A DNA stretch of 64,000 nucleotides from Sphagnum compactum (lineage: Eukaryota): contig OZ234493.1 in assembly GCA_965153455.1 (NCBI GenBank), positions 20,698,213 through 20,762,212 on the forward strand, read 5' to 3'. The position numbers were made by a program, and so were the translations under genes. The notes below the pieces were generated by a model, which was not told the DNA's origin, searched no databases, and saw only the letters and a list, made by a program, of their open reading frames with translations. Positions 8,857 to 60,675 of this stretch are shown piece after piece; position 1 is the stretch's first letter, and each line of letters opens with the position of its first letter.

Positions 8857-9260
8857 GGGTGCAAACAGGATAACACAAGCCACACCCGCTTGCTTTTGGG
8901 ACTACTTTTGGTGGAATTTTTTCTATAAATTTTCACAAAAATTATATATATATACAATATTATTATGTCAAGGTTTATGTAAAAGATTTCAAAATATATG
9001 TAATTATCAAAAGTTTTGAAGTCCATTTATAAGTCTTTTTAATATTGAAAAACATTCGTTACAATGTTTAATGAGTGTTTTTGAAAGCTTATTATTCATT
9101 GGATATTTTTCAAATTCACATGTTCCAATGATATTAGAACCTTATTACTATACACAAAAAATCTTATACTTGCAACACCAAGTTAAATTACCACTTCTTA
9201 ACGTGAAAAATTAAGCATCAATTACGCTTGCTATGACTCGTGTTAGTGTGATTGCACCCC
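8857..9260. mobile_element. AT-rich MITE inserted in the element A transposase
   Basis: Degenerate ~29-bp TIRs (GGGTGCAAACAGGATAACACAAGCCA vs reverse complement GGGTGCAATCACACTAACACGAGTCA), flanked by AGCAAT/AACAAT. Removing it restores the frame ...TIELA-IDDEEESIFG.... Confidence 0.75.
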
Positions 9261-10619
9261 AACAATTGATGATGAAGAAGAATCCATCTTTGGGGTAGTG
9301 ACCTCAAGTGAAACTACTTTGCAAAGGTTGTTAAAGAATGAATTATCTTTATTCCATCATTTGTTAATGAAACCAGAAGACATTATTCTACCTTTAACTT
9401 GGTGGAAGACCCACGAAGCTCGATTTCCCAACCTTTCTTTTGTGGTTCAACGAGTTCTTAGGATTCTTGGGTCCCAAATCGAAATGAAGAGAATCTTTAA
9501 TGTTGCTGGAGTGTTGACAAGTCTATCACATTGTAAGTTAGGAGTTGACAACCTAGACAAACTTGTAATGATCATGAAGAATTGGCCAATTGATGCACGG
9601 ATAGATAGCCCAAGAAAAGGGCAGTCCATTATTGAATTTTTGGCTGAAGAAACAAATATCATTGACAAAACTGATAAATTGTTGGGTGTAGATGGTTATT
9701 TCAATATTGATGTCGAACTAGCTTAATGCACACAAAAGTTGATGAACATTTTGTTTAATTTTTTCAGGAGCCATGTTGCTTTGATTAGGAATCTAGTTGT
9801 GTTAACTTCAATGGCCAGATGTAATGGTCAGCTCAGTTCTTTGGTTCTAATTTGATGAATGTCCCTATGTCCTTTTTCAATTCTTGATTTAGAATTCCAA
9901 TAATTGTCCAAACTTTGCACATATTTTTGAACTTACAATTTTGCATGATGATGATGTTTTGGCAAGTTTGTAAGGATTCTTATTTTAAAAATTTATCATG
10001 GCGAACACTCATACACATGGTAGCTCTAAGTTCATTGACCTTTTTAGGTTAGTATGTGTTGATGTGGGATGTGTATGTGTGTTTGCATGTTTAGGCAAAG
10101 TTTTTTTATCAACACTTATAATAAAGTTTTGCTTTGTAATAATATTATTAACTATAAATAAGTAATTATAAATAATACATATAATTACATTAATTAGTTG
10201 TAATAATTATAGAAACATTACTCACAAATATTATGATGTAATAACAATTATTTATTGTATATAAGTAATTATAAAAATTGAATACTCTAATTGATTGTAT
10301 TATGATCCTTGGAAATACATTAATTATTTTACTTACTTTAATTACAATAAAATTATTATAATTTTTTTAAATCATATTCATAATTAATAACTTTAAGTTC
10401 TAAATCATGATTAATTAAGTTCCATTATAAATTATGAAACTATTATAATTAATATATTAATTAATAAATTATAGTTAGTTTACAATAATTAGTCATTGAT
10501 TACAAGAATTAATGTTTATTTTTTAAAAACTATTAATTATTACTATTAAAATGTATGGAGTGATAATAATAATATATTTAAAATGTGTAACTATAAATAA
10601 AACACACAATAATTTAGGA

Positions 10620-14600: not shown

Positions 14601-15594
14601 ACCCCCCCCTTTTTTTTTTGGCTTGCATTTGTTTTTTCCCATTGTAAATTCACACTGTCTGCAATGGGAAAGCCATTCCAAGATTTGAATTTGATCTGCA
14701 AAAGATAGTTTGTCTTGGAGTTGTTTCGTCCCCCCTCTTTGCCTTGCTCCTCATCTCAAACGCATCTCAAACGCATCTCAAACCCTAATCACAACAGAGC
14801 CTCTTTTTTGATGTGCCCATCATGGAGGTGTTGTGTACCAGTTTGTATGGTTGTCATCCAGCAAATCTCATGTGATTAGATTTCAAGGACTGAAATGTCC
14901 TACTGCCCTGGTCCAAGAAAGGATTGAAACTATATGGCAAATTGGGAAATTTGTGTCTTGCCATTTGTGTATTGTTTTTCATCTTTCTGGCTAGCAAAGG
15001 TTCAGAGAAGGCAATGATAGAAAACTACTGGTATGAATTGTAGTGTTAGTGTGAGAGAATACTACACAATGGCAATGCATGTCAGACAAAGAGAGAGCCA
15101 GATGCTACACTAGAAAGTTGGCATGAACTTGCTCTGCCAAGTCATGAATTTGTGGGATAAACAGTTGATCTAATTATAGCAGAATCACAAATCCATTGAG
15201 TCTCTGTTTTTTCTTATCAGAGTGCTTGTGTGTATGCAAAGTCAAACCTTCAATTGTACATTCTCTTTTCCTGTCAAATCTTTCGCTAGAATTTTTGTTT
15301 TTGCTCTCATTTTCTTATGATTCTGAAAACTGGCAGCTGAAGTTCATCACAACTGGAATTGGATCCCTGGATACATACACGGCCCCCACCATAACTGGTC
15401 TTTTAGTTTACAAGGAGTATTTTAGCTGGCATTTTAAGTTCAGCTGGGGAACTTGAGACATCCTGAGAAGATGTCTTTGACCAAGAGAGTCACTAAGATT
15501 GTCTAATGTGCCTTTTCTATGCTCTGTTGTTTGGAGGATTTGCAGGGTGCAATTCCCAACATTTGGAGCCATTGACACAAAGTGTGAAGCTCTA

Positions 15595-17118
15595 ATGGGG
15601 GATAGCTCTGCTCCCCAAGGTGAGATCAGGAGGGAAACAAATGAACATTTGCATGGACTAGCAGCAAGGAAACATCGAACCAAGTTACAGATCCTTCCTT
15701 TGGTAGCCCTCATCTTCTATGAGGTATCAGGAGGACCGTTTGGAGTGGAGGATGCGGTACAAGCAGGTGGACCTCTGTTAGCCCTTCTGGGGTTCATCAT
15801 CTTTCCTTTCATTTGGAGTATACCAGAGGCACTGGTAACAGCAGAGCTGGCAACAGCTTTTCCTGAAAATGGTGGATATGTCTTGTGGATATCAGCTGCA
15901 TTTGGGCCTTTTTGGGGTTTTCAGGAAGGATGGTGCAAATGGATCAGTGGAGTGACAGACAATGCCTTGTATCCTGTCCTCTTTTTGGATTATTTCAAAC
16001 TTGCTCTTCCAGTTTTTGGACATGGAGTGTTCCGGATCATAGCACTGCTGGTCATCACCCTCTCTCTCACATTTCTTAACTATAGGGGGCTTACCATTGT
16101 GGGAACCACAGCAGTGGTGCTCACAATCTTCTCACTCCTCCCCTTTTGTGTGTTATCAATTCTTGCCATCCCCAAGATAAGGGTCCGGAGATGGCTGGTG
16201 GTTGATTTTAGAACGACAGACTGGCGAACATACCTGAATACACTGTTTTGGAATCTCAATTATTGGGATTCAGTGAGCACTTTGGCAGGGGAAGTGGACA
16301 ACCCTAACAAAACCTTTCCAAAGGCGTTGCTATGGGCTGTCTTGCTGGTGATAGTAGCATATGTAGTGCCATTGGCAGCAGGCACAGGTGCATTGCCGCT
16401 TGATAGGGATAAATGGGACGATGGGTACTTTGCAGATGTTGGCATGGCTGTTGGAGGAATAGTGTTGAAGTGGTGGATTGAGTCAGCAGCTGCATTTTCT
16501 AACATGGGGTTATTTGAAGCTGAGATGAGCAGTGATTCATTCCAGCTCCTGGGCATGGCTGAGACAGGAATGCTCCCTAAGATATTTGCTATCCGATCCA
16601 AGTATGGGACACCCACACTGGGAATTTTGTTTTCTGCATCGGGAGTTCTTCTGTTGTCCTGGATGAGCTTCCAAGAGATTGTGGACTTCCTTAATTTTCT
16701 CTACTGCTGTGGCATGCTTCTTGAGTTTGCAGCCTTTATTTGGTTGCGAATGAAAAAGCCTGAACTGGTGCGGCCTTTCCGGATTCCAGTTGGCACAATA
16801 GGTGTAATCCTCTTGCTGCTACCAGCAACAGTGTTGCTGATTGTGGTCATGTGTATAGCATCCTGGAAGACAGTCGTCATCAGTATTGCAGTCTCAGTTT
16901 TAGGTTTCATCGCATATCCAGCACTGCAGCATGTGAAGGCCAAGAAATGGATGCAGTTTTTGGATGTAGATGAACCTAAAGTGCCTGAAGATGATGATGT
17001 GGATCCTGCTCTATCTCTGGATCCTGTTATATCTCCGGATCCTGTTATATCTCCGGATCTTGCTATATCTCTGCATCCTGAAGTGAGTGAGACAGAGATA
17101 ATTTCTTTGACTGAATAG
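15595..17118 (+). CDS. LAT/PUT-family polyamine / amino-acid permease (RMV1-like), single coding exon, 507 aa
   Basis: Family motifs [55 protein letters not shown] and [16 protein letters not shown]; multiple TM segments. First ATG at 15595 follows a 5'-UTR intron acceptor (tgcag, 15545). Confidence 0.95.
17002..17079 (+). repeat. Coding 18-bp tandem repeat (4+ copies) in the transporter C-terminal tail
   Basis: GATCCTGCTCTATCTCTG / GATCCTGTTATATCTCCG x2 / GATCTTGCTATATCTCTG encodes [24 protein letters not shown]. Confidence 0.9.
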
Positions 17119-23047: not shown

Positions 23048-24181
23048 ATCCCTCCTGGCTCACCCAACCCCTGCACCTTCTTCTTCTTCTTCTTCTTCTT
23101 CCACACCTCCCCCCGTCAATCCTGTCTGCTCCCTTTATTCCACTACACAAAATACAAGAACAAAGCCACAGAAACTAAGCTAACGGCACCAAACCACAAA
23201 GCCAAAACTGTTCTTGAAACACACAAACACGCAGGCGCACACACAAACCGACAAATTTTTCGCTGAAATTTGATTTTAGGGTTGAAAGCTCCATAACTGC
23301 CTACTCGGAAGGGACTTGTGTGAGAGAGAGAGAGAGAGAGAGGGCAATGGGGCATGCCTCTTGGTAGTGTGAACAAATGAACGATTGCCACCTGTTAGTT
23401 TTGGGGGTGTGCTATCCCCTCTTCTAGAAGTTTCTGGAACTTTGGGGGAGGAAGGGGGACCAGGAATGGGTCTCTTTCAAGTTACTTAATCGCCGTGTTG
23501 CTTTTTTATATAAATTTATATTATTATTATTATTTTAATAAATAATTATTTATTTACTTAACTAATCACCTAGTACCTTTTCAGGTGCCAAAATAATTAT
23601 TTTAATTTTCAAAAAAAGTCACTTTGGCAGTTTTAAAAAAAAACATTAATGAAATTTCGGCAAAATATTATTAATTTATTTAGTCAACATATTTAGGCAA
23701 AACTTCTTTCATAGTTTTTAAATTTTAACATTTCAAATAGATAATCTCTAAAATAATTTTCATTTCCACAAATAATTTAATTTCCACCTAACCTGAAAAG
23801 GTAATTATGTTATTCTTTTTTATTAATTAGATCAGGGTGCCTCCTAAGTTCAAGCTTTTTTTTCTTTTTTTCTTTGATGTTCTTTTTTGGCACCATGAGC
23901 CATTTTGATTGGCCCATCACCCCAGAACAAAACAAAAATAAAAACTTTGCAGGCGTCCCTAAGTAGAAGTTTCTATCTTGAACTCAAAAACCTACCCTTT
24001 GGGGGCACCTATGTAGGTGGGTGAAAAGAGGACAACCGTCGGCAAAGCATGTGGGATGGGATAAAAAGTGTGGTGCTATTGGGAACATCTTGAGGAACAC
24101 ATTGGGAACAGCCCAAAAAAAAAACCAATGTTTACATATTGTAATTGTTGGGTCCCCTATGAAGTTCTTTCTCATGGAATA

Positions 24182-24652
24182 TCATATATATTAATTCAAA
24201 CAGTCCGTCTGTCTATGACGGGGTTTTGAGGGGTGGGGGAGGGAGAGGCCGGTGAAGCAGCGGGTGACAGTGCTTGGTAACGGGGCGGGGGGGGGGGGGG
24301 GGGCCAGCATGGGGGGTGGGGGAGGGAGAGGCCGGTGAAACAGCGAGTGACAGGGCTTGGTAACGGGGCGGGGGGGGCCAGCACGAGCAGTGGGGGAGGG
24401 AGAGGTTGGTGAAGCAACGGGTGACAGGGCTTGGTAACGGGGCGGGGGGGGGCCAACACGGGGCGGGAAGTTAATTATATATAACAGGGGAACGGGGGGG
24501 GGGATCAACGGGTTAAAGAATCGGAGTGGAAAATGCGAAGGACCGGGGGGGGGGGGGGGGGGGGTCGACGGGGTAAAGAACCGGAGTGGGCAATGGGAAG
24601 GACCGGGCGGGGGGGAGCTCGACTGGTGCATTATGCACCGGGTTCACACTAG
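24182..24652 (+). mobile_element. Non-autonomous G-rich Helitron, copy 1
   Basis: Starts A|TCATATATATTAATTC. Ends with hairpin GGTGCATTATGCACC followed by GGGTTCACACTAG|T. No TSD. Confidence 0.85.
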
Positions 24653-24980
24653 TTATATATTAATTCAATAAGTCTGTCTGTGCGTCTGTCTGACACGACA
24701 ATTCTGCTGCAATTCTATGGCAGAACCAGCCTCTACATTTTCTGTGGCAAAACCGGGCAATGCATTTTCTATGACAGGGCTTGGTAACGGGGCGGGGGGG
24801 GGCCAGCACGGGGAACCAAGGGGGGGGATCAACGGGTTAAAGAATCGGAATGGAAAATGCGAAGGACGGGGGGGGGGGGGGGGGGGGGGGGGTCGACGGG
24901 GTAAAGAACCGGAGTGGGCAATGGGAAGGACCGGGCGGGGGGGAGTTCGACGGGTGCATTATGCACCGGGTTCACACTAG
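24653..24980 (+). mobile_element. Non-autonomous G-rich Helitron, copy 2, head-to-tail with copy 1
   Basis: TTATATATTAATTCAA 5' end. The 3' ~210 bp are near-identical to copy 1, including the hairpin and CTAG (24977-24980) followed by T. Confidence 0.82.
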
Positions 24981-25101
24981 TATATAGTAATTCTTCTATG
25001 TCAATAATAATATATAGTAATTAGTAAATTATAATAAATTAAATATATGTAATTTATAAATATATTACTAATTTATACATTTCTCATGGAATATATAGTA
25101 A

Positions 25102-25541
25102 CTAGTGTGAACCCGGTGCATAATGCACCCGTCAAGCTTCCCCCCACCCGGGTGGGTATTAGAGATATCCACAAATTCACCATCTTTGGGCCTCCTTTCG
25201 CCCCCTAACCCCTCTTTTAGTGGTATCCATAAAGTAAGGAAATTTTATTAAATCTCAATATGGAATGCTGAAACTCAATACGAAATGCTGAATCTCAGCA
25301 TTTAATGCACAAGTTTCGAGAGGTTTATAGCAGCTAGACAGGTAGGAGCAGTGAAAATCTATGTAGTAGTAGTGGAGTGGCTCAGGAAAAAATAAAGACA
25401 GGGTGAAACTCATAAAATCGCCCGTGCTGGCCCCCCCCCCGCCCCGTCACCTGTCACCCGCTCCTTCACCAGGCATCTCCCTCCCCCACCCCCCAAAACC
25501 TCCGTCACAGACACAGAGTCTTACTGAATTAATATATATGA
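25102..25541 (-). mobile_element. Non-autonomous Helitron, copy 3, opposite orientation, with a different interior
   Basis: On the minus strand: 5' A|TCATATATATTAATTCA at 25541, and hairpin GGTGCATTATGCACC plus CTAG|T ending at 25102. Confidence 0.85.
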
Positions 25542-27099
25542 TTCTTCTATGTCAAGTAGTGACCACCAAGTTGCATGCTAACATTTGGATTAGTTTGAAA
25601 ATTTGGTGTGACGATCAAATTAATTCCAATTTTGTGGATTTATTGATGGTGCATGATCCCATATATTCTTCGTAGCAGGTTGCCATTTGAGAATTTTCAA
25701 GATTGAAGATTCAAGTCTCATACAACAGCCTTTTTGGCATGTTGCCACCAAGTCTCCTTGCAAGTCACAAATGCCTAAGGTAATCCGGATTTGTGTGATG
25801 TGGCCAACAAATGTGACGCCAATGACAAGAAACAAACAACAAGGTGAATGGAGTGATGGTGTCAACAAAGGCATTGCAAGAGGTCGTGGTGTTGAAAGCC
25901 AAGGAGACCTAAAACATCAGCTATCGTTGTATCAGTTGCTAAAGTAGTTCTTGAAGTTGAAAGTTGAACTAGAGCATCCTTGAGGGCTTTTAATGAATGA
26001 CAAAAGGAAATATGCTAAACATAATTTAGGGGAAGGGAAGGAAATGAGAATGGAAATTTCTTCTTGGAAAACCAAACCCAATATACACAAAAAATCCTAC
26101 CTAATTTATTGTAACAATTGATAGATTCTTGTTACTACCATTGTTGCATTTACATAAACATGCTCTAATTTTTTTTCACATGGACACAATCCAATCAATT
26201 GTGTCTTGCATATGGCAAAAGTTCTAAAAACAAGCAAGAAATCATCACACACCCGAAGAGAAATTCTCATTCCCATCACATTCATCAAATAAGAAACTTT
26301 CCACCACTAGTGTGAGATCTCGAGACTTCATGCATTATATAAACCGAGTGCAACAAACATCCTCCAAATCTTGCACAAATGAGTTGTTTTTGTCGTTAGC
26401 CCAAAGTTTACGGAACCCTTTCAAGTATTTCCCTCTTTCATGACTACGCACAACCTTTTGTGTTTGTTTTTTTTTTTTTTTTTTCATTATGCTTTCATGA
26501 CAAGTTTACATATTGAGCAACACAACATGTTTTGCAACAAAGTTGTTGCTTTACATTAGACACTGCAAATCGGTGTGGATGATCTAGACATACCAATTTG
26601 TGGGAAAAAATCAAATTTCAACAATAATATTTTTTTTTATAAAACAAGCTTAATCAATCTCTTAACGTGACAATAATAATTTATTAGGTGGAAATGTTCA
26701 ACATCAACCCAAAAAAATAAAGTTATAACATTAGCGTGATCAAAATAACTTTTTGCTTATAAGTTGGAATTTGTGAAAAGCAAAAGTACTTCATCAAAAT
26801 ACACCTCATAAATTTTACATTTTGAACTCCTACCTTATGCACAACAAAACTGACCCAAATCATATACATTTATGCAATTTAATTTGGTTAGAATTTTTTT
26901 TAAAATATTACCATCGAGTATTTTAAATAAAAATGTAAAAATTTCATTCATCCAATGTTTTTTGAATTAAACTTGATAAAAAAACTAATTGAAAAATTGC
27001 CGTGAAATTTTTTGATTACACAATCAAATAATTTGCACCAAAAACATTGATTTTTAATCCAAAAAAAAGTAAAATGACTTATAACATTACTTTAATTTT

Positions 27100-27292
27100 A
27101 AAAATGTGTGGGAATTTAAATGTTTAGTTAAATCCACATGGTTTGTTTCGAATGTGTGAATTTAAACCTAAAAAATGTGAAGCTAGACCTAAAATTCGAG
27201 TCAAGTGGTTTGGCCTAAAAATGTGAATCAAAATTTCAAACTTAAGTTGAATGGTTTGTTTCAAAAGTGTGAATTCATACCTAAAATTTAAT
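27100..27292. repeat. ~45-bp minisatellite, left part
   Basis: Units of TGGTTTG...AAA(A/G)TGTGAAT..A.ACCTAAAA; same family as 46645-47230. Confidence 0.7.
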
Positions 27293-28387
27293 GATGCACC
27301 CTTAAGTTTTTCTCAAGTTATTGGGAGTAAATTTTCAAAGTGAAAAACAAAAAGAAGGGAGAAAAAATGAGAATGTGGGGATACATCGTTAAAAGGAAAA
27401 ATTTATCAAAGTAAAATCGATAGTATTTATAATATGAGTAGTTGTAGGTTTGAAGTTATAATTCAAATTATTGTATAGTCATGTAATTTATTCATCGATC
27501 ATGTTGATTATTGGTTAGTTTATTGGGTGAATTTACTATTTATTATTTTTGAACAAAAACATTTACATAGTTTTTACAAAGTCATAAACATAAGAGGAAA
27601 ATTGAGACATTCATGTGTTTTGAATTCAAATATATTCAACTCAATTTTGAGAAGTGCAATTTCATTTTCAATTTCTATTTCTTGCATATACATTTGTGTT
27701 TTGTAGAATATGTTTGTTTTGATTACAAATTATAGAAGTTAATCACATATTAGTTTTTTAAAACTTTCATTATGTGTTTAAATTAAGGTCTAAAGGTTTT
27801 GAAGAAAGAAACATATTCCCTTTTCCATTTGGCAACCATCCCATGGAACAATTTTGATTAGTTTTTGGCTTGTGAACATTGATATAATTATTTGAAGGTT
27901 TAGTTTTTTTTTTATAAGACTAGAGGTATAATTTTGGAAGGTTTTGTCTATGTTGTAGAATTGAAATTTTGAATGGAATAGTGATATGCATTTGGTTTAA
28001 CCTATAATTAAATTTAATTCTAACTAGTGGAAGGTCTAGAATTTTAAAGTATACTAATTCTTTTTTTTAAATTTGGTAGTTAAGATCAATTTTTTAGAAT
28101 TATAACAAAATATGTACAAAAGGCAATACATGAAAGAACAAATCAAAAATAGGAGTGAAAAAATAATGCATTGCAAGTGATATTTTTTGAAAGGTTTACC
28201 AAAACAATTAGCACTAGTCTCATATATATAATATCGTTGGTTTTGTCCTCTTGCGGTGGTGTCCGGTCGTCCTTTCCATCCATCCGTCTCGTCTTCCATC
28301 CATCTAAGTTCTTCATCCCGAAAGAAGAAGATGATGGAAGAGGAGGAGGACAGATGGCAGCAACATGCAGCTCAGCTTTGCATGGTT

Positions 28388-28699
28388 GTCCTCTTGCGGT
28401 GGTGTCCATGCCGTCCCGTCTTCCTCCATTGTTGTGGAAAGTGGGGGATGCCAGGAAGAAGAAGAAGACTGTCCTCTTGCGGTGCCGTCCCGTCTTCCTC
28501 CATTGTTGTGGAAAGTGGGGGATGCCAGGAAGAAGAAGAAGACTGTCCTCTTGCGGTGCCGTCCCGTCTTCCTCCATTGTTGTGGAAAGTGGGGGATGCC
28601 ATGAAGAAGAAGAAGACTGTCCTCTTGCGGTGGTGTCCGGCCGTCCCGTCTTCCTCCATTGTTGTGGAAAGTGGGGGATGCCAGGAAGAAGAAGAAGAC
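28388..28699 (+). repeat. 74-bp tandem repeat x4 inside the Helitron 5' region
   Basis: Units start at 28388, 28471, 28545 and 28619 with GTCCTCTTGCGGTG, the same motif as the Helitron subterminal sequence at ~28245, and end GAAGAAGAAGAAGAC. Confidence 0.9.
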
Positions 28700-28727
28700 A
28701 AAGAAAAACAAGAAGAAGAAGAAGATG

Positions 28728-30520
28728 GATTGATGTGGGTTTTGGTTTTGTGCAGACGAATCGCCAGTGGAACAAGTGAGACAAACGGTTCCCAATACGG
28801 ATGATCCCAGTCTGCCGGTATGGACATTCTGGATGTGCACAATAGGCTTACTATTTTGTTTTTAGAAGGCAATTCTTGCTTGGAATTCCTGGAAGATGCC
28901 ATTAGAGAATTTGGAAATTCTTTCTCAACATGCTTTGCGTGTACTTTATGAAAGGTTTGAAGTTCTGAGGCTTTTGTCAGGATTTCAGTGTGAGGATTTT
29001 CCAGTGTTTCCAAACAACTTCATCACAAAGGTGGGTCATTTCATAATCACTTTTTTTTTAAAATTGAAAGAAAATTTCAATTCGAGTTTTTTGTTAACAA
29101 AATTTCTATTTAGGCCTAAGGATTAGAATCTTTTTATTATTTTGACTTAGGATTTTTAAAAATTGCCATTTTGGCTTGGGTTAGAATCTTTTTATTGTTT
29201 TGACTTAAGATTAACAAAAATTTAGCACTGAGGCTTACAATTAGGTTTAAAATTGGGCATTCTAAAAGATTCCTGAAAAACATTTCTCAAAATGCTTGAA
29301 AAATATTCATTAGTTTGAGAATCTTTATTCTGCCCAATATATTTTGGGTAGCTTATATAGGTTGATTTTTTTTCATTTTTGCTGAAGAATTTGGGAAATC
29401 AACAAATCCTATGCTCAGAAATATTCATGAGATTTTTTTTCTAAGATGCTTGAAAAAATTTCAGGCAATTTTGGAAATTTTAGCTTGCTTTGGAAAGTTA
29501 TAAATGCTGATTTTTATCGTTTCTGCCCAAAATATATTGGGCACTGGATGCTTGAAATTTATTGGCATTTTGGGAATTCTCATTTTGCTCAATAATAACC
29601 GGCACCTTATAAATGTTGAAGATTGATGTGGGTTTTAGTTTTGTGCAATACGGGGGAGGGACTGGAGGGACTGAAAGCATTGGAACAGGGTGGGAACGTG
29701 GACGAGTCGCCAATGGAACAAGTGAGACGAACGGTTCCCAATACGGATGATCCGAGTCTGCCGGTATGGACATTCCGGATGTGCACAATAGGCTTGTTAT
29801 TTTGTTTCTAGAAGGCAATTCTTGCTTGGAATTCCTGGAAGATGCCATTAGAGAACTTGGAAATTCTTTCTCAACATGTTTTGCGTGTACTTTATGAAAG
29901 GTTTGAAGTTCTAAGGCTTTTGTCAGGATTTCAGTGTGAGGATTTTCCAGTGTTTCCAAACAACTTCATCACAAAGGTGGGTCATTTCATAATCATTTTT
30001 TTTTAATTTAAAGAAAATTTCAATTCGAGTTTTTTGTTAACAAAATTTCAAAGTTTTTTTTCCTCTGGCGGATTGATGTGGGTTTTGGTTTTGTGCAGTC
30101 CTGGGGAGGGACTGGAGGGACTGAAAGCATTGGAACAGGGTGGGAACGTGGACGAGTCGCCAGTGGAACAAGTGAGACGAACAGTTCCCAATACGGATGA
30201 TCCCAGTCTGCCAGTATGGACATTCTGGATGTGGACAATAGGCTTGCTATTTTGTTTCTAGAAGGCAATTCTTGCTTGGAATTCCTGGAAGATGCCATTA
30301 GAGAACTTGGAAATTCTTTCTCAACATGTTTTGCGTGTACTTTATGAAAGGTTTGAAGTTCTGAGGCTTTTGTCAGGATTTCAGTGTGAGGATTTTCCAG
30401 TGTTTCCAAACAACTTCATCACAAAGGTGGGTCATTTCATAATCATTTTTTTTTAATTTAAAGAAAATTTCAATTCGAGTTTTTTGTTAACAAAAATTCA
30501 AAGTTTTTTTTCCTCTGGCG
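28728..30520 (+). pseudogene. Three tandem copies (28728-~29105, 29621-30070, 30071-30520) of a captured oligopeptide transporter (OPT) N-terminal fragment fused to an unidentified 165-nt exon
   Basis: VDESP(V/M)EQVRRTVPNTDDPSLPVWTF(R/W)M is the SPxxEVRxxVxxxDDP signature of OPT-family transporters. It is truncated after ~37 codons and followed by ag|AAGGCA...ACAAAG|gt. Confidence 0.85.
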
Positions 30521-30803
30521 AAATTGGTTTTCAGAATCATATACAATTTCTTACTCTCTGCATTTTAGTCTTGGCAGGGGTTCTGTGGCCAAAAGAACCA
30601 AGCCCAATAAGTGTGATGCACTTGCACTCATATGAAATCTCTTGCCACTTGCAGAGCTTGACAAACATATGGTTTTGGTGTGCTGCAGCAATCAAAGAAG
30701 TATCGAATGCCAGCTGTTGAGAAATTGCAAGCTGAGGTATATGAGTTAGTGGCAAAGGCAGTGAAAGAACGTCTTGGGTTGGCAGTAACAGCTGAGGATG
30801 TGT

Positions 30804-30941
30804 CACAAAGAGACTTGATGAGGCACCTGCTGCAGCCCCAGATGCAAGGTTTCCAGCAAACCACATCCAGCAACCATCCCTGTCCTTTTTGTAACCAAAC
30901 AGAGCTTTGAAGTAGTCCTTAAATGTAAAGTTCAATGCCTG
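30804..30941 (-). pseudogene. Captured fragment of a mitochondrial ADP/ATP carrier (AAC/ANT)
   Basis: [46 protein letters not shown] matches the conserved AAC segment QALNFAFKDYFK...[24 protein letters not shown]. Homology stops abruptly on both sides. Confidence 0.9.
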
Positions 30942-33900
30942 TTTTGTAGACAATGGAGAATCATTAGGGCTGATGACAAGGACCTTAAGATATTTACAAC
31001 AACTCACCATACTGGCGGCTTCCAAATGCTCCATCAAATTCTCTATATATTTAAAATTGACTGAAGCACGCAGAACAACACATTGTATGCAGACATCACA
31101 AACCACTTGGCATATGCAACTTTGGCACAGCACAATGTTCATGTGAAAAGTTACTATGTGCATCCATAGAAGGCCAGAAAATGGTTCATTACTAGACTTC
31201 TCTATCTGTGAATCATTCAGAATGTGGCAGAATTATTTTCATTACAAAACATATTAGAAAAACTATAATCTTTTTGAAAAAGAAAATAAAAAGAAAATAA
31301 ATAAATAAATAAATGCATAATTTTAAAAAAAAATGAAGATAGACAAAATAAGAATAGGAAAAATTAAAGCATGAAACAAACATAAACAAAAAAAAGTAAA
31401 AACTCAAAAACTAGAAAAAAGGAATGGAAACAAATGAAACAAGGAAAGGGAAATACAATAAAAAAATTTTAAAAGAAAAAAATTTACAAAAATGAAGAAA
31501 CCAAATCAAGAGTAAAAAATAAGAAAAAATAAAACTTATAATAATGAAGAAAAACCCTGCTTGAAAAAGAATGAGGTGTGTCTTCTTTCTCCAAACTTCA
31601 AACTTGCATCCAAATAAACAAAAATATAAAAGTGAAAAAGAAACACTTTATTTTTATTATACAAAATAATAATAAAAACACAAAACACAAACAAATAAAA
31701 AAAATAAAAAATAAAAGTTTCTAGAAAAAACTAAAACATGAACCAAGTTTAAAGAAACCGGGGGACTTCACAGTGCCCGAAGGTCACTGTCCGTCCGGTC
31801 GTCCTCCTTGGGTTGTATGTTGGGGGGGCTTTAGTGGGTATGTGTAATTTGGGGGAGGGATGATATATCATAGGCTGTGATTGGGTTCAGCAAGTAACTA
31901 TCGAATAATCAATATATTTATTTTTAAGGATTTAGTTTTCACACATGTTCATGAGTTTTTTTTTTAATTTTTTATATTGCAAGTATGACAAGGTTTGTTG
32001 AAATTTTCAGAAAATTATTTGAACTTAGACGTGCAAATTACACCTTTTTTCAAAAATAAACATTTTGAATTATGTTGTTTTGTTATGTATAAAGTTCGTA
32101 ATATTGTTAATAGAAGAGAAAGTGATGTCATGCGTCACAGTGTCCGAAGGTCACGGGTACCCACTAGTCAACCATAATAGGGGATTAGTGTTGTATTGAA
32201 AGGACAAATTGAAAATGTAGACATAATTGTTGATCAAAGGATGTTGATCGATGCATAAACTTGATCTAAAGGTGTTAGAAGAACACCAAACCAGTGTGTA
32301 AATTATTTTGTAATAGAAGGCGTGATTGGGAGATGATTAGAATTTCAAGAAGAAGGTGATGTGGTTGGACTGTTGATAGATCCACAACAAATGTTCAAGT
32401 ATAAATTGGAGGAATTTTGACTATTTAGTATGATCTAGGTCTAGAAAATTTTCATAGAGGTATTTGTGCACAACTTGTGAATCAATAGGGCATAGAAGAG
32501 CACCAAATTGCATACAAACATGTGCAAGTGCATGAAGATTTAAAACATTTGTCAAATGTTACCACAATCAATGTTGTTAGTAGTAATTAAAATCAATTTG
32601 AACCAAACAAATAATTGACAAATGTAAAAATTGTTCTTAATTTAATGGTGATTATACAAATGAATAATTCAATCATCAAATTTGTTGTATGAAAATCATA
32701 GTCTTAAAGACTATATGTATATCCCCAAAAGATTAAGACATTCAATGATTAAGGAGGTATGGGAGTTTGTTTTATAAAAATCAAACACATAGGCAAATTT
32801 ACATCAACAACCATTATCAAGCCTGATACGATGAATAACCGATTTTCCCATTACCTATCTAACATGTGTAATTTGGATAAAAAAATGTAAACACTTACTG
32901 ATTTCAATAGAAGAACAAATGACCTTGGTTGTGGTACCACCATATTGGTATGGGTTCAACCTATACACATATCTAGTTGGGACATTAATGATGTCAATGA
33001 ATACAAATCTTGTACCAACACAAGCAATATGGTATTTTACATAATACCCATATGTGAGTCAAACAATGCCACATGTGCATTTTTTAGTTACTTATGTTCT
33101 AGTTATTGTACTTGTACTTGTGATAAATCAACCATTAATCAATATTGTATGCATAATGGCATCACCCTAGGATGAAAAGGTGATGGAGGTAGTAGTTTGC
33201 CTAATTTGCCATTGTTGATTTTCAAACCTAAAGTAAATTGAAGAGTTGTACCTTTTAACAGACCAAGTGGACCACCTAGTCGGCTAAAAGCAAACCTAAA
33301 ATGAGGACCATTTTTTTCATCATGGTATCCATTTGTATTTTTTGACCATCAAATTTAATTGGACCAATCACGCCTCCTACACATTAGCAACTACAATATC
33401 CAAACTATGTCAAATATACAAATCTTGATGCTCATATCCAAATAATAAAAAATGAAATCAAAGCTAATGGTGATATAATTAATGAAGGTATTAATAATTT
33501 GTTAGTTTTATGCTCATGGATAATATCTTTGAGCATGGTTTAAATTTTATACAATGTCATCTTAATTGTATATTTGCAAAATTGGAGCAAACACTTTATA
33601 ATAAATAAAAAATAGAGAAAAATGATAAACATATTTACATTAAACTTCATAATATCAGACAAGAAGATCATGAATGGGTGGAAGTTTATTATGAAAGAAT
33701 TTTGAAATGCATGGCTAATTGTTTACATATCAAGGTTATCAATACTTATTTAACAATTGTCTTTAGAATAGGACTTCATCCATACATTCAACTGTCAGCA
33801 ACATGAATGAAACATGATACTCCAATTGAACACAAAGAAATCCTTGTCATCTATGAAGAAAGTGGACCTAAAGTACATAAAACATTATTTTCAACAAGTA

Positions 33901-41800: not shown

Positions 41801-44800
41801 ACTTACCACATCACAAGAAGATCGTTGGACTGTGGATATAAAGGAAATTTAAAAGATCATTTAGTAGATTACTATTAAACTTGTGGAATTTTGATGGGCC
41901 AAGACAATTGGCTATGAAGGATTTTTCTAAGTTCAATGGACTAATTTGAGAATTCCACTTTTTGAGGAATATTTCTAAACATGGATTCAACACAAAGATG
42001 GGCATATCCAAGTGTATGTCCAAGGGAAAAACATTGTCATCGACCATTAATTTTTTCATGAGATGCTTCAAGTATCAAATTGAAAAGTAGTTGATCCACT
42101 GACAATAAGCAAATCAATTACTTCAAATCTAGTTGGTAGCATCGTGGAGTTTGCATATGTGTATGTTAGCATTAAACAATAAACTATTTTTAAGATGTGA
42201 GAACTTTATTGATCAATTATATTTTTGCAAGTGGCGTACTAATGGGAGAAAATCACTTATTTCAACAACAAAAATTGTTGTAAGTTTCACGAACATAGAT
42301 CATGGTAATGCCAATAAACTAATGTTCCATTATGTTTACCCAATTTAGTGTGGAGATGGAGTAGCGGACTAAACTTTAAAAGAAAATTGATGTTTATAAT
42401 GCGTAGGAAACAAAGAATATTGGTTATGTTGTATGTAAGATAGTCATCGTTACTTTACTGTGCAAATGGTTTTTGTTGGTCACTGACATTGATAAACATA
42501 ATGATCAAGGTGTTTAGTAACCGTAATTTGATGAAAATTCAAGTATGGAGTTTGTACTTAATGAAAGTTCTAAAACTCATGACGATTCGTAAAAAGAAAT
42601 GGAAAAGGATGTGCAAGAAATTACAATGGAACATATCATTCAAAGAATGAGGTTTCTAGTTGTTGAATCTTTATTTACCGCGGCCTATCGCATAGATGTC
42701 ACCATTAGCTAAGAAAATATCAATGAATCAATTTGCTGTAATGCAATTTGATCAGCCTACCACCAAAACAATTATCCAAAGGTTCCACTTGAAGTGCCTA
42801 CTTGTAAATGTGCACATACTTGAATTGTGCCAAATATAATCACATTGATTGTATTTAAACCTACATTTACACAATTTCCATCACCAAATCTTGAACAATG
42901 ACTTCCATTTGTAAAAGTTATTGCAACTTTATAAATTGCTTTTGAGATTGCCAATTGGCAATAAGGAACTAATCATCCCAATTCCACAAGTTTCAATTCA
43001 TGTAATTAACCCTTACCTTTTGAATAATACAATTTTTTTGAAAATATAAAAGATTTTATTACTTTTGGAGCTTAGAGAACTATGAATTGACAAAAACTAT
43101 AAGAAGATTTCACAAACCTCATGGTAGAACACAATCAATTAACTAATCATAAAAAATAGATGCATTAAATGAGTTAGTTGATAAAAACATGCAAATTAAA
43201 AGTCTTGTACAAAGGAAAAAAGACCATGAAATTAAAGTAAAACATATTTCAAATTCAACAAAAGGATATGGAGTTCAAAAACTTGGGCAAAACCATGGTA
43301 AAGTAAACCAAAGAATTACCTTGCAGCATAAATGGAAAGTGGGATCAAGTAGGCCTTGGTATAACGAATTTAAATATATTATTTATTTAAATATTTAATT
43401 ATATGAAGTTCTTTGACTTTTTTATAATTACATTTAAAAACCACATATTTAAAATAGGTTTGTATATATTCATCAAAATCAAACAAATGTCACAACATGA
43501 AAAATAGATTAAAATTCAAGCACAAATAAATTAAGTATTGGATCTATTTTATTTTTAAATCAATAACATGCTAAATATACTAGTGGACTTTGACTTTTTT
43601 CACAATAGAATCAAAATATATTTAACATCTAATGTAAAAATAGGAATGAACACAATATTAACCTGTGAGTTTTGTTCCTACTTGTTACCTACTTTTATTG
43701 TACAAATTTTTTTCAAATTTTGTATTCAACTCATAAAAATTCAATGGAAGCATGAAGGCTTCCATAATGAGATTATAAAAAAAATTGGACCTACTTTCTT
43801 ATGTTTATGTTGAAAAAATTGCGATATTTAAAATTGGATTTAAACGAACATACTTTTTAGTCCACTTTACCATGCTTGCACCCACTTGCAAAAACTTTTT
43901 GATTGGTAATGCCAAAAAACTACTAAATCTTTATTAGTTATAGAAAAACGCTTCAAAGATTAATAAAAACAAATCATTGAGTTGCAACTCGAATGTGATA
44001 AATAGAATGACTAAAAGTAATAACTATAAATTGTGCCATCAAGAATTATAAGTGACAAGATGGAGTATGATGAATTATTCCTGAACCAAACATTATTGGA
44101 TGTTCATACTCAAGCATTGGCACAACAACTTTGAATACAACTTTGTATGGTGGGATAAAATACAAACCATTGTCGAAGAAATGCAATGAACAACCATACA
44201 TTTGTAAAATTGAATATTATGGAATTGCTTACATGGATCATGTTTACATTTCACTAAAATTTTCATCCAATGTTCTTACTTGGGAATGATCATTAATCTC
44301 AATATTGATGCAGAGCCTGATATCATCAAAGGAGGATCACAAAATTTTCAATCAATTGTTATTACAGATACATCCACTGCACCTATATATATTCAGATTG
44401 GATTTGGACTTGAGGTTAAATTCATGTTAACTACACCTCACCAATATGAAATCATTAATATTTTTATTCAACCCACAAAGTTCTAGATTATGGATTTGCT
44501 ATATCAGATTTTTGAAGATGAAACCCATATTTTAGGAGGGTTAAATGTTAAGGGGTGGAATTTATCAATGTGAAATTGATAGTATACATAGTTGTAATGC
44601 AATTTATTGCATAGTTGTATAATTTACTCACTAATCATGTTGATTATATATGAATTAATATACTAGTCATATTTATTGGTTATTAGTTTTAGCAAATTTT
44701 TTTAAATAAATTTTGTAAAATTTTGGATACAAGAAGAAAATTAAGACATTCATGTGTTTCAACTTTTGAAATGAATTCAATTATGAAAAGATAGATTCAT

Positions 44801-45293
44801 TTTCAATTTTGAATTCTTACACATACATTTATGTTTTGTAGAATTGTAAAAGTTAAAAACTTAATATTTATTTTGATTTCAAATCAGAAAAAACATTCAT
44901 AGATTATTTTAAAAACTTTCATTATGTGTTCAAAATAAAGTTTAAAGATTTTGAAGAGAAAAATATTTAAATATTATATTTTTCATACATTTTTAATTCA
45001 TTAAAATGGGGAAAAGGGGTGTAAAAGATCCAAAATGGTATTAGGATGATGGGACAATCATAAACATCTCATGAACAAGTCATGTACACAAATCAAACAA
45101 ATCAAGTGGTTATAAATGCAAATGGAATTAACTTTGGCTCATAAACTTGCTTTAGATTCACTACATTCACATGGTTCAAATTTGGGAGAAAATCACCACC
45201 TTCTTCCTTATAATATACTTCATGATTAGCATCACCATGCAAAATGGTCTTCACAAATTACACTTCTAAGGCTATGAATATGGTGATGGTTTT

Positions 45294-46122
45294 TGACGCA
45301 CTCCCAAGTTCCTTGATAGATTCAAATGTAAGTCTAAAGTGAAACATCGAAAGAATAAGGAGTCGAGGCACGCTATTTGGCTCATAACACTTCGGGGGTA
45401 GAGGGGCGTGCTGGAGCTCCGGGATGGGGACTAGGAAGAGTGACAAACATTCAATTATTCACACGGACCTACACAAACCAAACAACAAGTTGGTTAGTGC
45501 GAAGTTGCAACACTTTTGGTGCACGGACGAGTCACAGGCAAACACGAGACTCACAAGACTCACCACGGCCCGGACTTGGGGGAAATTACCGCCTTCCCCC
45601 TTATGGTATACTTTGTGCCTGGCCACGGGGTTAGCACCTAAATGTCATTTTGTTTCGGGGCTCCCAAGTGGGAGTCTCGAAATTCCCAAAATTGGGACTC
45701 CCATGACTTTGGAGGCCTATAACCTTGTGTGTAGACATCTAATTGAGGTGAGGTCTGAAGAAAAATTGTAGCCTTGTCCAGAGCTTTCCAACGGTATGTG
45801 GCATGCCATCTGCATGCAAGGAAGTCAGGGCGATTCTTGACTTTCAGTGGTTGGGAGTCAAATTGGCAATTTGACTTCCAACCCTTCTTTTGGCCATAAC
45901 TTATGTTTTAATTACCCAAATGGGTCATGCGAGCCCATTTTAGACATCTAAGTTCTAAGAGTTTTCCAATGATATAAGGAACTATTCAATCTAATGGGTT
46001 TTGAACCCAGCACACTCTCCCACACTCTCGGGAGCATGAAATGTGACTCCCGGGCTTCAACCTTGGCCCGTGCCTTCGCAAGCCCTTGCCTTGGTCGCAA
46101 GCCCAAGGCTAGGGTTGCGACA
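45294..46122. mobile_element. Solo-LTR-like insertion (829 bp), less decayed than its surroundings
   Basis: TG...CA termini with short inverted ends TGACGCA / TGCGACA, 5-bp TSD GTTTT/ATTTT, and a sharp GC rise against the flanks. Confidence 0.75.
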
Positions 46123-46644: not shown

Positions 46645-47230
46645 ATGACCTAAAAGCTAAGTCTAATGGTTTGTCTTTAAAAGTGTGAATTAATAGCTAA
46701 AGTTGAAGTCTAGTGGGTTGTCTTGAAAGTGTGAATTCAAACCTAAAATTTAAGTCCGATGGTTTGTCTTGAAAATGTGAATCTAGACTTCTAAAATTAA
46801 GTCCAATGGTTCAAAGTGTGAATCATACCTAAAAAGCTAGATGCGAATTGTTTCTCTTGAGAATGTGAATCCATACCTAAAAAGTTTAGTCCAATGGTTT
46901 GTCCATAAAGTGTGAATCCAAACCCAAAGTTCAATTTAGTGGATCTAGACCTTCAAATTAAGCTCAATGTTTAGTTTGGAAGTGTGAATCCATACCTGAA
47001 AACCGAAAATCAAATGGTTTGTGTGTGAATTTGGACCAAAAATTTAGTCCAATGGGTTTTCCTAAAAGTGTGTATCCAGACATTCTGGCAAGTTAAGTGC
47101 AATGGTCTTGTGCTAAAAGTGTGAAACCAATTAGACTTTAGATGTGCAGTGCAATGGTTTGCGCTGAAAGTGTGAAACCAAAGTTTTTAGGTGTACATGT
47201 GTTGTTGATTGTTGTCCCAAAAGTGTGAAA
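46645..47230. repeat. ~45-bp minisatellite (about a dozen units) abutting the TRF-like gene promoter
   Basis: Repeating AGTCCAATGGTTTGTCTTGAAAGTGTGAATCCATACCTAAAA-like units. Confidence 0.85.
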
Positions 47231-59978: not shown

Positions 59979-60675
59979 CTTCCAATCTCCTCTCTCTCTC
60001 TCTCTCTCCCGGTATCCACCACACGGACTCCCGTTTCTACTCAACTTCAGCAGAATTGCGACAATTGGGTTGTACCATCTCCCATCCACGAACACTTCAG
60101 ATCAAATCTAAAACAGGGAAGAAGAAGGTTGAGAAAGCGATCGAGAGAGTCCAACGGCATAAATGAGCAGACGACGAAGACGAAGAAAGAAGAAGACTTT
60201 AAGCTTCAAACCCTAATCAGTTTGTGTGGCTGGTTGTTGGGCGTTTGAGAGAACTCGATGTCTGTCTGAGAGAAGAACAAGAAAAAACAAACTCGATGAG
60301 GTCTGTCTGTCTGTCTCTGAGAGAGCGAGAGAGAGAGAGAGCTCGTGGGGTATTTCGTCTTTTTCTGGAGCTCGTCTTTTTCCGTGAGCTCAGATGTTGC
60401 GTCACTTCGCGGAAAACGAGACAGGATTTGAACGAAAAGTTTATGTGTGTTGCGCGCGAAATGCGACACCCATCTGGAGATTGCGCCCTGTGCCGAACGA
60501 ACATCGAGGATGCGCAACTACCGATCCTCCTCGAATGCCGAGATCTCTGCGTTGAAGAAGGGGTATGAGGGATTAGGGTTAGGGTTAGGGTTTGGGGTTC
60601 TGGGTTTTGTATACGAGGGTTGCTGTCTGCAGCAGAGTTTCCAGGAGCAGCGCGGAAGGGAAGGCGAGAGCCATC
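59979..60675. promoter_or_regulatory. Bidirectional promoter/5' UTRs shared by the CNR6-like gene and PUR3
   Basis: Only 697 bp between divergent ATGs. Telo-box AAACCCTAA at 60208; (TTAGGG)3 at 60573-60590; E2F-consensus sites GCGCGAAA (60454-60461) and CGCGGAAA (60408-60415); GA repeat at ~60318-60341. Confidence 0.7.

What the first reader, a model, noticed from the sequence alone, without database searches (positions are those of the whole stretch)
28218..32167. Gene-capturing Helitron assembling a chimera from several unrelated host genes
Seen between Helitron-type ends (TC...hairpin-CTAG|T): a 5'UTR+ATG-like piece (~28280-28387, MAATCSSALHG), an OPT transporter N-terminal fragment, an unidentified 165-nt exon, short exon-like pieces with AG acceptors (~30578, ~30689: [33 protein letters not shown]), an antisense ADP/ATP-carrier fragment (30804-30941), and another coding-like stretch (~30951-31190). 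Established: maize Helitrons capture gene fragments. Inference: this is exon shuffling in a probable bryophyte, where it is little described. The fragments look young and could be spliced into a chimeric transcript or produce siRNAs against donor genes.
Basis: partly seen in the sequence, partly recalled or inferred. Interest (0 to 1): 0.75.

Follow-up and report, generated by a model that had tools for sequence, protein, structure and literature searches.

The report
Gene-fragment-carrying Helitron in peat moss
This is most likely a non-autonomous rolling-circle transposon (Helitron) in a Sphagnum peat-moss genome carrying pieces of at least two unrelated host genes, a well-known kind of element in a plant group where it has hardly been described.

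Summary
28218-32167 starts with TC and ends with CTAG|T. It holds three copies of a 160-nt piece of an oligopeptide-transporter (OPT) gene, each followed by a 165-nt exon-like piece. It also holds one antisense exon of the mitochondrial ADP/ATP carrier (E 7e-17 against solved structures). The window is Sphagnum DNA.

No plant DNA collection was available, so the test for a dispersed family used predicted proteins as proxies.
- 7 of 7 short gene models from other contigs share the first ~170 nt of the element, with unrelated sequence upstream.
- One model reads across a 3'-end/5'-end (CTAG|TC) junction.
- One model joins the 5' region directly to the homologue of 31573-31683, so it lacks the 3.2-kb cargo.
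- A Sphagnum compactum gene model carries the same chimera.

Caveats:
- The 3' hairpin is no stronger than in shuffled sequence.
- The 5' flank is G rather than A, and the 8-mer CACTAGTC stands at both edges.
- A second, degenerate 3' end lies inside the element (31768-31787).
- The "5'UTR+ATG piece" is the family's own terminal region.
- Only two donor genes are identified.

Verdict: a Helitron carrying captured gene fragments, a new member of a known kind, of moderate interest.

The parts
28212..28217 (+). 5' flank CACTAG. Together with the element's first TC it forms the same 8-mer (CACTAGTC) as the element's last six bases plus the 3' flank TC.
   Evidence: CACTAGTC at 28212-28219 and 32162-32169 (4 hits in the window, both strands, against 1.29 expected); no further similarity between the upstream flank and the 3' end.
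28218..28384 (+). Family 5' terminal region (left terminal sequence), starting with TC.
   Evidence: 7 of 7 gene models (P0019-P0025) match 28256-28384 at E 4e-16 to 9e-11; their sequences upstream of the shared block are unrelated to each other.
28385..28727 (+). 74-nt tandem array (3.8 copies, 95% matches) plus a GAA run. Each unit begins with a copy of 28244-28272, so it is an amplified piece of the 5' region.
   Evidence: TRF; family D3 (5 copies of the 29-mer); P0019 shows a similar repeated 5' region in another copy.
28728..29106 (+). Cargo unit copy 1: OPT piece 28752-28865 (OPT residues 71-106, then a stop) plus the 165-nt exon-like piece 28866-29030 plus an intron-like tail.
   Evidence: 95.5-95.7% to copies 2 and 3; tblastn of P0005, P0001, P0011.
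29107..29620 (+). AT-rich spacer (GC 0.29) found only after unit 1, with internal short repeats and a 21-nt inverted repeat (29331-29351 / 29523-29543).
   Evidence: (I9, D12, D14, D19).
29621..30070 (+). Cargo unit copy 2: OPT piece 29647-29811 (OPT residues 54-106) plus the 165-nt piece 29812-29976.
   Evidence: (97.1% to copy 3).
30071..30520 (+). Cargo unit copy 3: OPT piece 30097-30261 plus the 165-nt piece 30262-30426.
30521..30803 (+). Piece with two exon-like stretches (about 30578-30612 and 30689-30784, '[12 protein letters not shown]...'). Its origin is unknown, and it may be intron next to the carrier exon.
   Evidence: only 3 short fragments (38-51 aa) and one 31%-identical repetitive protein among 1.84 billion representatives; no Pfam family.
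30804..30944 (-). One exon of a mitochondrial ADP/ATP carrier, antisense to the rest of the cargo.
   Evidence: PDB 6gci E 7.3e-17, chain residues 92-138; also 4c9g, 4c9j and 1okc. One search gives the same.
30945..31200 (-). Coding-like stretch of unknown origin. It is open on the minus strand in frame with the carrier exon and forms part of a 231-codon open frame (30537-31232).
   Evidence: 0 stops in one minus frame against 8 and 6 in the other two; 0 of 2000 dinucleotide shuffles reach 231 codons; no family or structure match outside the carrier exon.
31201..31565 (+). A-rich low-complexity stretch (GC 0.20).
31566..31787 (+). Family 3' region with a first, degenerate 3' end. The hairpin 20-mer lies at 31768-31787 but no CTAG follows.
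   Evidence: P0020 residues 61-106 match best at 31573-31683 and P0025 residues 55-82 at 31752-31787 (0 of 200 shuffles reach either score); 20-mer.
31788..31805 (+). Fossil junction. The 13-mer GTCCGGTCGTCCT is identical to 28261-28273 in the 5' region and follows the first hairpin after 5 nt.
   Evidence: 2 hits in the window, 0 expected.
31806..32134 (+). Body of the second, short unit, of unknown origin.
   Evidence: no other copy in the window.
32135..32167 (+). 3' terminus: hairpin 20-mer (19 of 20 identical to 31768-31787), 9 nt, then CTAG, followed by T at 32168.
   Evidence: P0025 residues 68-84 match 32137-32187 (E 0.012) and then run into the family's 5' motif.

Best explanation
28218-32167 is a non-autonomous canonical-type Helitron (HLE1-like) in a Sphagnum genome. 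It has no transposase of its own, and a RepHel enzyme encoded elsewhere would move it.

Structure
- It consists of the family's ~170-nt left end, a 3.2-kb cargo, and the family's right region.
- The cargo was assembled at the DNA level from unrelated places: an internal 160-nt piece of the first coding exon of an OPT transporter, an unidentified 165-nt exon-like piece with intron-like flanks, one antisense exon of an ADP/ATP carrier, and pieces of unknown origin.
- After capture, the OPT+165 unit was duplicated in tandem to three copies, and a piece of the left end was amplified into a 74-nt array.

Inferred history
- The element is a fused head-to-tail pair. The first unit's terminator (31768-31787) lost its CTAG and abuts a remnant of a left end. 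Any further movement would therefore have to run on to the second terminator at 32135-32167, the end-bypass route by which Helitrons grow.
- This copy sits at a non-canonical G|T site. The host sequence CACTAG|TC mimics the joined ends of the element itself.

Shown: the gene pieces, the repeats, the shared family ends (through protein proxies), and a copy without the cargo.
Inferred: Helitron class, the order of events, trans-mobilisation, and the target mimicry.
For: Termini
- 5' TC and 3' CTAG|T are at the stated positions.
- No terminal inverted repeats: the best local score between the first 60 nt and the reverse complement of the last 60 nt is 7, and 190 of 300 shuffles reach it. None were found either.

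Dispersed family
- One search found 8 proteins among 2423 candidates.
- 7 of 7 short models (P0019-P0025) match 28256-28384 at E 4e-16 to 9e-11. They share 20 invariant columns and have mutually unrelated upstream parts.
- The shared block begins at the residues that correspond to the first ~20 nt of the element.

Head-to-tail junction
- P0025 reads ...PGDFTVSKGHGYPL then VYNIL.... This is the window's 3' end (31752-31787 and 32137-32169) followed by the family's 5' motif.
- Du et al. 2008 describe exactly this CTAG|TC 'G/T junction' for adjacent maize Helitrons and cite it for bat Helitrons (passages read).

Cargo
- It is absent from another copy. P0020 passes from the 5' region (28259-28384) straight to the homologue of 31573-31683 (E 3.4e-4, 0 of 200 shuffles).
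- Cargo identities: OPT and the carrier.
- No OPT, carrier or RepHel domain was found in 139 ORFs of 75 codons or more elsewhere in the window, nor in 15 of the 16 such ORFs inside the region.

Same chimera elsewhere
- P0009 (S. compactum, 321 aa) carries the 5' region, the 74-nt repeats, OPT, the QSKKY piece and the antisense carrier read-through in the same order.

Internal second terminator and left-end remnant.

Context: HELIANO lists 2762 HLE1 and 555 HLE2 insertions for Sphagnum magellanicum (supplementary table).
Against: - No DNA of other copies could be examined, so every family inference rests on translated gene models, mostly from short unnamed contigs.
- Only one model (P0025) documents the 3' terminus, and its match to the very end is weak (E 0.012 over 17 residues).
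- The 3' hairpin is not better than shuffled sequence (z -0.80 for both the terminal and the internal copy).
- The 5' flank is G, not the canonical A.
- The 8-nt direct repeat CACTAGTC at both edges could be read as a target-site duplication, which Helitrons do not make.
- No autonomous partner sharing these ends was seen.
- The P0020 'cargo-free' match lies partly in A-rich low-complexity sequence. A deletion in that copy, rather than a capture in this one, would give the same picture.
- Three of the cargo pieces have no identified donor.
Confidence: 0.7

Rival explanations
1. Two separate neighbouring family members rather than one mobile unit. The cargo-bearing element would end at the degenerate terminator (31787), and 31788-32167 would be a different, truncated copy. 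The reader's 3' boundary would then belong to another insertion, and the cargo-bearing element would be immobile.
For: The hairpin 20-mer occurs twice. A left-end 13-mer follows the first one. P0025's 3' region matches the internal copy better than the terminal one.
Against: This differs from the best explanation only in whether the pair ever moved as one unit. The 8-mer CACTAGTC framing exactly 28218-32167 fits a single insertion event for the whole block. The second unit has only 13 nt of left-end sequence.
Confidence: 0.25
2. Not a Helitron. The block would be an insertion of another kind that makes or uses an 8-nt direct repeat, such as a hAT-type element with an 8-nt target duplication or break repair with patchwork filler DNA. 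The shared 5' piece would be just another repeat caught in the patchwork.
For: CACTAGTC stands at both edges. The hairpin is weak. The 5' flank is G, not A. A hAT dimerisation domain lies in the window at 9247-9723.
Against: No terminal inverted repeats under any of three boundary choices. In P0025 the residues before the 5' motif are the family's whole 3' end, not a random duplication. The family boundary in 7 of 7 other copies falls at the block's own edge, which a randomly caught internal piece would not do.
Confidence: 0.1
3. A decayed local gene or gene cluster: the remains of tandemly duplicated host genes at their original place rather than transposed fragments.
For: The OPT+165 unit is tandemly repeated. 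The pieces have plausible splice signals.
Against: The OPT piece starts and ends inside the first coding exon of the real gene, residues 54-106 of P0005. OPT and the carrier are unrelated and on opposite strands. Each is represented by one small piece. The same junctions recur in several protein clusters and in another species. The flanks are AT-rich with stops in all frames.
Confidence: 0.03

Closest known systems
Gene-fragment-carrying non-autonomous Helitrons (HLE1) of maize, rice and Arabidopsis
   Same: TC...CTAG ends, no inverted repeats, no transposase, and an interior made of pieces of unrelated host genes in both orientations, with exon-intron structure kept. Definitions as given in the HELIANO paper (introduction passages).
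   Different: The host is a peat moss. The hairpin is short and weak. The insertion is at G|T, not A|T. There is a subterminal 74-nt array derived from the left end, and the cargo unit is tandemly triplicated.
Head-to-tail adjacent Helitrons of maize (Du et al. 2008, PMC2267711) and of the bat Myotis lucifugus (cited there)
   Same: The TC of one element directly follows the CTAG of another, giving a G/T rather than A/T junction (passages read). Here this is seen in P0025, in degenerate form inside the element, and as CACTAG|TC at its 5' edge.
   Different: At the 5' edge only six bases of a 'preceding end' exist. It looks more like a host site that mimics the junction than a second element.
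HelenSM92, an HLE2 (Helentron-type) family of Sphagnum magellanicum with a captured GIY-YIG domain (HELIANO paper, PMC11417382)
   Same: A rolling-circle element with captured coding sequence in the same genus (passage read).
   Different: [quoted passage not shown] Neither holds here.
Pack-MULEs and other Pack-type DNA transposons
   Same: Non-autonomous elements that carry chimeras of host gene fragments (recalled knowledge).
   Different: They have long terminal inverted repeats and 9-nt target duplications. No inverted repeats are present here.

Membership tests
Canonical Helitron (HLE1) | 5' end begins with TC | tested here: met
   TC at 28218-28219. The shared block of 7 other copies begins within about 20 nt of it.
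Canonical Helitron (HLE1) | 3' end is CTRR | tested here: met
   CTAG at 32164-32167. The same end is read in P0025.
Canonical Helitron (HLE1) | Short hairpin a few bases before the 3' end | tested here: inconclusive
   Two small stems within 45 nt of the end: -5.6 kcal/mol, z -0.80, 40 of 200 shuffles as good. The 20-mer is conserved 19 of 20 between the two copies in the element.
Canonical Helitron (HLE1) | Insertion between host A and T | tested here: not met
   The 3' flank is T but the 5' flank is G (CACTAG|TC). This is the non-canonical G/T junction described for head-to-tail Helitrons.
Canonical Helitron (HLE1) | No terminal inverted repeats | tested here: met
   190 of 300 shuffles reach the observed score; none at the ends.
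Canonical Helitron (HLE1) | No target-site duplication | tested here: inconclusive
   The 8-mer CACTAGTC stands at both edges, but it overlaps the element's own TC and CACTAG. It can be read as a junction-like target rather than a duplication. An empty site is needed to decide.
Canonical Helitron (HLE1) | Both termini shared by a dispersed family with unrelated flanks | tested here: inconclusive
   Met for the 5' end through protein proxies (7 of 7). For the 3' end only one model (P0025). No DNA copies could be searched.
Canonical Helitron (HLE1) | Autonomous partner encoding Rep-helicase with the same termini | not testable with these tools
   No RepHel domain in the window. HLE1 insertions are reported for S. 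magellanicum, but their termini are not given in the held supplement.
Helentron / HLE2 | Short terminal inverted repeats and insertion between T and T | tested here: not met
   No inverted repeats. The flanks are G and T.
hAT superfamily | 8-nt target duplication with short terminal inverted repeats | tested here: not met
   An 8-nt direct repeat is present, but there are no inverted repeats with boundaries 28220-32161 (249 of 300 shuffles as good).
Pack-MULE | Long terminal inverted repeats and 9-nt target duplication | tested here: not met
   No long direct repeat pair framing the site. No RT or integrase domain in 139 ORFs.

The most novel reading that the evidence does not exclude
This Sphagnum Helitron family may integrate preferentially at host sites that mimic its own joined ends (CACTAG|TC), next to existing 3' ends, instead of at A|T. 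That would build head-to-tail pairs. When an internal terminator decays, a pair fuses into a larger element, giving a stepwise route to cargo growth. The resulting OPT/carrier chimera has spread within the genus and is annotated as a 321-aa protein in S. compactum. Here it also carries an unusually long 231-codon minus-strand frame with the carrier exon in frame, so it could be a source of lineage-specific chimeric genes.
Probability: 0.15. Interest if true: 0.55.

Novelty: new member of a known kind. Interest (0 to 1): 0.4.

Why it matters
Gene capture by Helitrons is well documented in maize and other flowering plants and in bats. For bryophytes, three full-text searches found no dedicated description. 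They found only genome-wide counts and one captured-domain example in a Helentron-type family.

A worked example in Sphagnum would show that DNA-level exon shuffling by rolling-circle elements also operates in mosses. It offers a family with a clear cargo-free relative for dating the capture. It also warns annotators that some Sphagnum 'proteins', such as the 321-aa S. compactum model and the 110-130-aa OPT-like models, are probably read from transposon cargo.

The G|T insertion at a junction-like site, together with the fossil internal junction, bears on how Helitron tandems and end bypass arise.

Tried and rejected
Paralogous empty site or other copies in the window
- Self-BLAST of the region, of the whole window, and of the two flanks joined in silico found none.
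- Only 27454-27817 resembles 44590-44967 (70%), and a ~46-nt satellite at 27138-27290 resembles 46647-47125.

Upstream flank as a decayed 3' end: local alignment was no better than shuffles (184 of 500 reached the score), so this was rejected beyond the 6 bases.

Pfam on the pieces
- No family at E<=10 for the OPT piece, the 165-nt piece, the QSKKY piece or 30916-31143. The carrier exon gave only a sub-threshold Mito_carr match.
- Pfam on P0009, P0011, P0020, P0025, P0026 and P0028 found nothing.

Donor searches
- 165-nt piece: 1 hit among 13 candidates, itself a read-through of another copy.
- QSKKY piece, exhaustive HMMER search: 4 hits, none a plausible parent.

Other checks
- Rfam on the whole window at gathering thresholds: 0 matches.
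- A third 20-mer hit at 7525-7544 (3 mismatches) lies inside an ORF and was set aside as chance.

What could not be done
- No plant genome, RNA-seq or small-RNA data were reachable.
- Structure and complex prediction were not used because nothing here calls for them.
- bioRxiv supplements were closed. The held HELIANO supplement gives counts only, with no terminal sequences.


Full report
WHAT IS THERE. The window is plant nuclear DNA with AT-rich intergenic stretches. The OPT-like piece at 30097-30261 finds Sphagnum proteins as its best matches: 96% to a 114-aa and 91% to a 790-aa protein of S. troendelagicum, and 97% over part of a 321-aa protein of S. compactum. In that search 18 proteins had E<=0.001 among 30 candidates, and 13 of the 18 carry Pfam PF03169.

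The block 28218-32167 begins with TC and ends with CTAG followed by T. From left to right it contains:
- a GC-rich 167-nt region (28218-28384);
- a 74-nt tandem array of 3.8 copies whose units start with a copy of 28244-28272;
- three copies of a unit made of an OPT piece plus a 165-nt exon-like piece plus an intron-like tail (28728-29106, 29621-30070, 30071-30520). Copies 2 and 3 are 97.1% identical and copy 1 is 95.5-95.7% identical to them. A 514-nt AT-rich spacer follows copy 1;
- a 283-nt piece with two exon-like stretches;
- one antisense exon of a mitochondrial ADP/ATP carrier;
- a 256-nt coding-like stretch;
- an A-rich stretch;
- a 600-nt right part that contains the same hairpin 20-mer twice.

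THE GENE PIECES.
- OPT piece. It corresponds to residues 54-106 (copies 2 and 3) or 71-106 (copy 1) of the full-length Sphagnum OPT P0005. Since 110-114-aa models (P0001, P0002, P0008) run without interruption from the OPT start codon through the same residues, this lies inside the first coding exon. The piece was therefore cut at the DNA level, not at exon borders. It carries a stop right after ...GLLFCF in all three copies, and copy 1 has lost the first part.
- Carrier exon. It (30944-30804, minus strand) matches solved ADP/ATP carriers at E 7.3e-17 (6gci), 3.1e-13, 1.1e-12 and 6.6e-9.
- 165-nt piece. It has an AG in front and a GT behind and is open in one frame. Its only database relative is P0011, a 130-aa model that reads through another copy of the same OPT/165 junction (1 hit among 13 candidates).
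- QSKKY piece. An exhaustive HMMER search of 1.84 billion representatives returned three fragments of 38-51 aa, which are other copies or antisense carrier reads, and one repetitive protein at 31% identity. No parent gene is shown. Because the piece adjoins the carrier exon, it may be carrier intron read on the other strand.
- So two unrelated donor genes are established and at least one more is likely. No OPT, carrier or other parent gene lies among the window's other ORFs.

IS IT A MOBILE FAMILY WITH THESE ENDS? No plant DNA collection was available, so I used predicted proteins that happen to be read across other copies.

Translating the 5' part (28232-28801) found 8 proteins among 2423 candidates: the S. 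compactum model P0009 and seven models of 106-151 aa from short contigs.
- All seven match 28256-28384 (E 4e-16 to 9e-11) and share 20 invariant columns.
- Upstream of the shared block, which starts at a ...YNI... motif that translates the first ~20 nt of the element (read in another frame in P0020), their sequences are unrelated to each other and to the window.
- One of them (P0024) has an upstream part similar to a different place in the window (45400-45693, E 3e-7).

Two of these models carry further information.
- P0025 reads ...KKPGDFTVSKGHGYPL and then VYNILG.... The first part is the window's 3' region (31752-31787, 0 of 200 shuffles reach the score; and 32137-32169, E 0.012). The second part is the family's 5' motif. 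In that copy a right end is therefore joined directly to a left end.
- P0020 runs from the 5' region (28259-28384) straight into the homologue of 31573-31683 (E 3.4e-4; best place in all six frames of the window, 0 of 200 shuffles). That copy lacks the 3.2 kb in between. The interior 28385-~31570 is therefore cargo relative to a simpler family member.
- P0009 shows the same cargo in the same order in another species, with differences in repeat number and a second 5' region inside.

WHY A HELITRON.
- The ends are TC and CTAG.
- There are no terminal inverted repeats under three choices of boundary.
- The two ends are different sequences.
- Right and left ends are found joined head to tail.
- The element carries host gene fragments.
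- These are the defining traits of canonical Helitrons (definitions in the HELIANO paper). The CTAG|TC 'G/T junction' is described for adjacent maize Helitrons and cited for bats (Du et al. 2008, passages). Head-to-tail junctions and tandem arrays are taken as marks of rolling-circle transposition (Helraiser paper, introduction passage).
- Helitrons are numerous in the genus: 2762 HLE1 and 555 HLE2 insertions are listed for S. magellanicum (supplementary table).
- The element has no room and no ORF for a Rep-helicase. 15 of the 16 ORFs of 75 codons or more inside it were scanned. The unscanned one lies in the 74-nt array. The element must therefore be non-autonomous.

WHAT DOES NOT FIT NEATLY.
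(1) The hairpin is weak. The last 68 nt fold at -5.6 kcal/mol (z -0.80), and the internal copy with its surroundings at -10.2 kcal/mol (z -0.80).
(2) The base before TC is G.
(3) The 8-mer CACTAGTC stands at 28212-28219 and 32162-32169. With TC fixed by the element and T usual after CTAG, seven free positions agree, which is unlikely by chance. The upstream flank shows no other likeness to the 3' end, so it is not a second element. A target duplication is unlikely because in P0025 the same bases before TC are part of a full 3' end. I read it as an insertion at a host site that mimics the joined ends. This is one of the two explanations Du et al. offered for their pair (non-canonical insertion at the GT after a CTAG). 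It is an inference.
(4) Inside the element, the hairpin 20-mer at 31768-31787 (19 of 20 identical to 32135-32154) is followed after 5 nt by a 13-mer identical to 28261-28273. P0025 shows what is missing between them. This looks like a former head-to-tail junction that lost the CTAG and the first ~45 nt of the next left end. The present block would then be a fused pair ending at the second terminator.

AGE AND EXPRESSION.
- The OPT/165 junction (...GLLFCF followed by the 165-nt piece or a stop) occurs in P0001, P0002, P0008 and P0011, which are 85-96% identical to the window's copy. The cargo is 80-96% identical at the protein level to P0009.
- The window's copies carry stops, Trp-to-Cys changes and a frame-breaking deletion.
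- The chimera is thus multi-copy and not very recent, while the 450-nt duplication (97%) is younger.
- P0009 and the short models are predictions. I have no transcript or small-RNA evidence.

UNEXPLAINED. A 231-codon open frame on the minus strand (30537-31232) has the carrier exon in frame with 90 open codons before it and 88 after it. None of 2000 dinucleotide-preserving shuffles of that stretch reaches 231 (maximum 174). The stretch was, however, chosen after seeing the frame. Outside the carrier exon it matches no Pfam family or solved structure.

VERDICT. It is overstated on the number of proven donors, on the nature of the 5' piece and on youth. The finding is a new member of a known kind.

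Noticed in passing
window 30537-31232 (minus strand): A 231-codon open frame with the ADP/ATP-carrier exon in frame. 0 of 2000 dinucleotide shuffles reach it (the region was chosen post hoc). No family match outside the exon.
   Followed up: partly
window 6376-8316 and 9247-9723 (plus strand): A 646-codon open frame without any Pfam match, followed by an ORF with a hAT C-terminal dimerisation domain (E 3.6e-9). This may be a hAT transposase or a derived gene.
   Followed up: no
window 15481-17118 (plus strand): A single 545-codon open frame with an amino-acid permease domain (AA_permease_2, E 1.6e-36). It appears to be an intron-free transporter gene.
   Followed up: no
window 24181-25542: A G-rich, GC-rich block (GC 0.57, GC skew 0.45) with 60-74-nt tandem repeats containing long G runs and an inverted copy (24181-24296 against 25542-25431, 83%).
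   Followed up: no
window 27138-27290 and 46647-47125: A satellite of roughly 46-nt units at two places 19 kb apart (70-76% identity). 27454-27817 also resembles 44590-44967 (70%).
   Followed up: no
window 45400-45693 (minus strand): The part of protein P0024 upstream of its Helitron-like block resembles this stretch (35% over 98 residues, E 3e-7). It is probably another dispersed repeat, into which the P0024 copy had inserted.
   Followed up: no
window 29331-29351 / 29523-29543: A 21-nt inverted repeat, 95% complementary and 171 nt apart, inside the AT-rich spacer of the cargo. This may be a small nested element.
   Followed up: no
window 53189-53725, 57597-58213 (minus strand), 60589-61974: Ordinary host gene pieces: a Myb-like domain, PLAC8 family exons and formyl-transferase exons.
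   Followed up: no
proteins P0001, P0002, P0008, P0009, P0011: Annotated or predicted Sphagnum 'proteins' that look like read-throughs of Helitron cargo (an OPT N-terminus ending at the same artificial junction, and the 321-aa chimera). These are likely annotation artefacts.
   Followed up: partly
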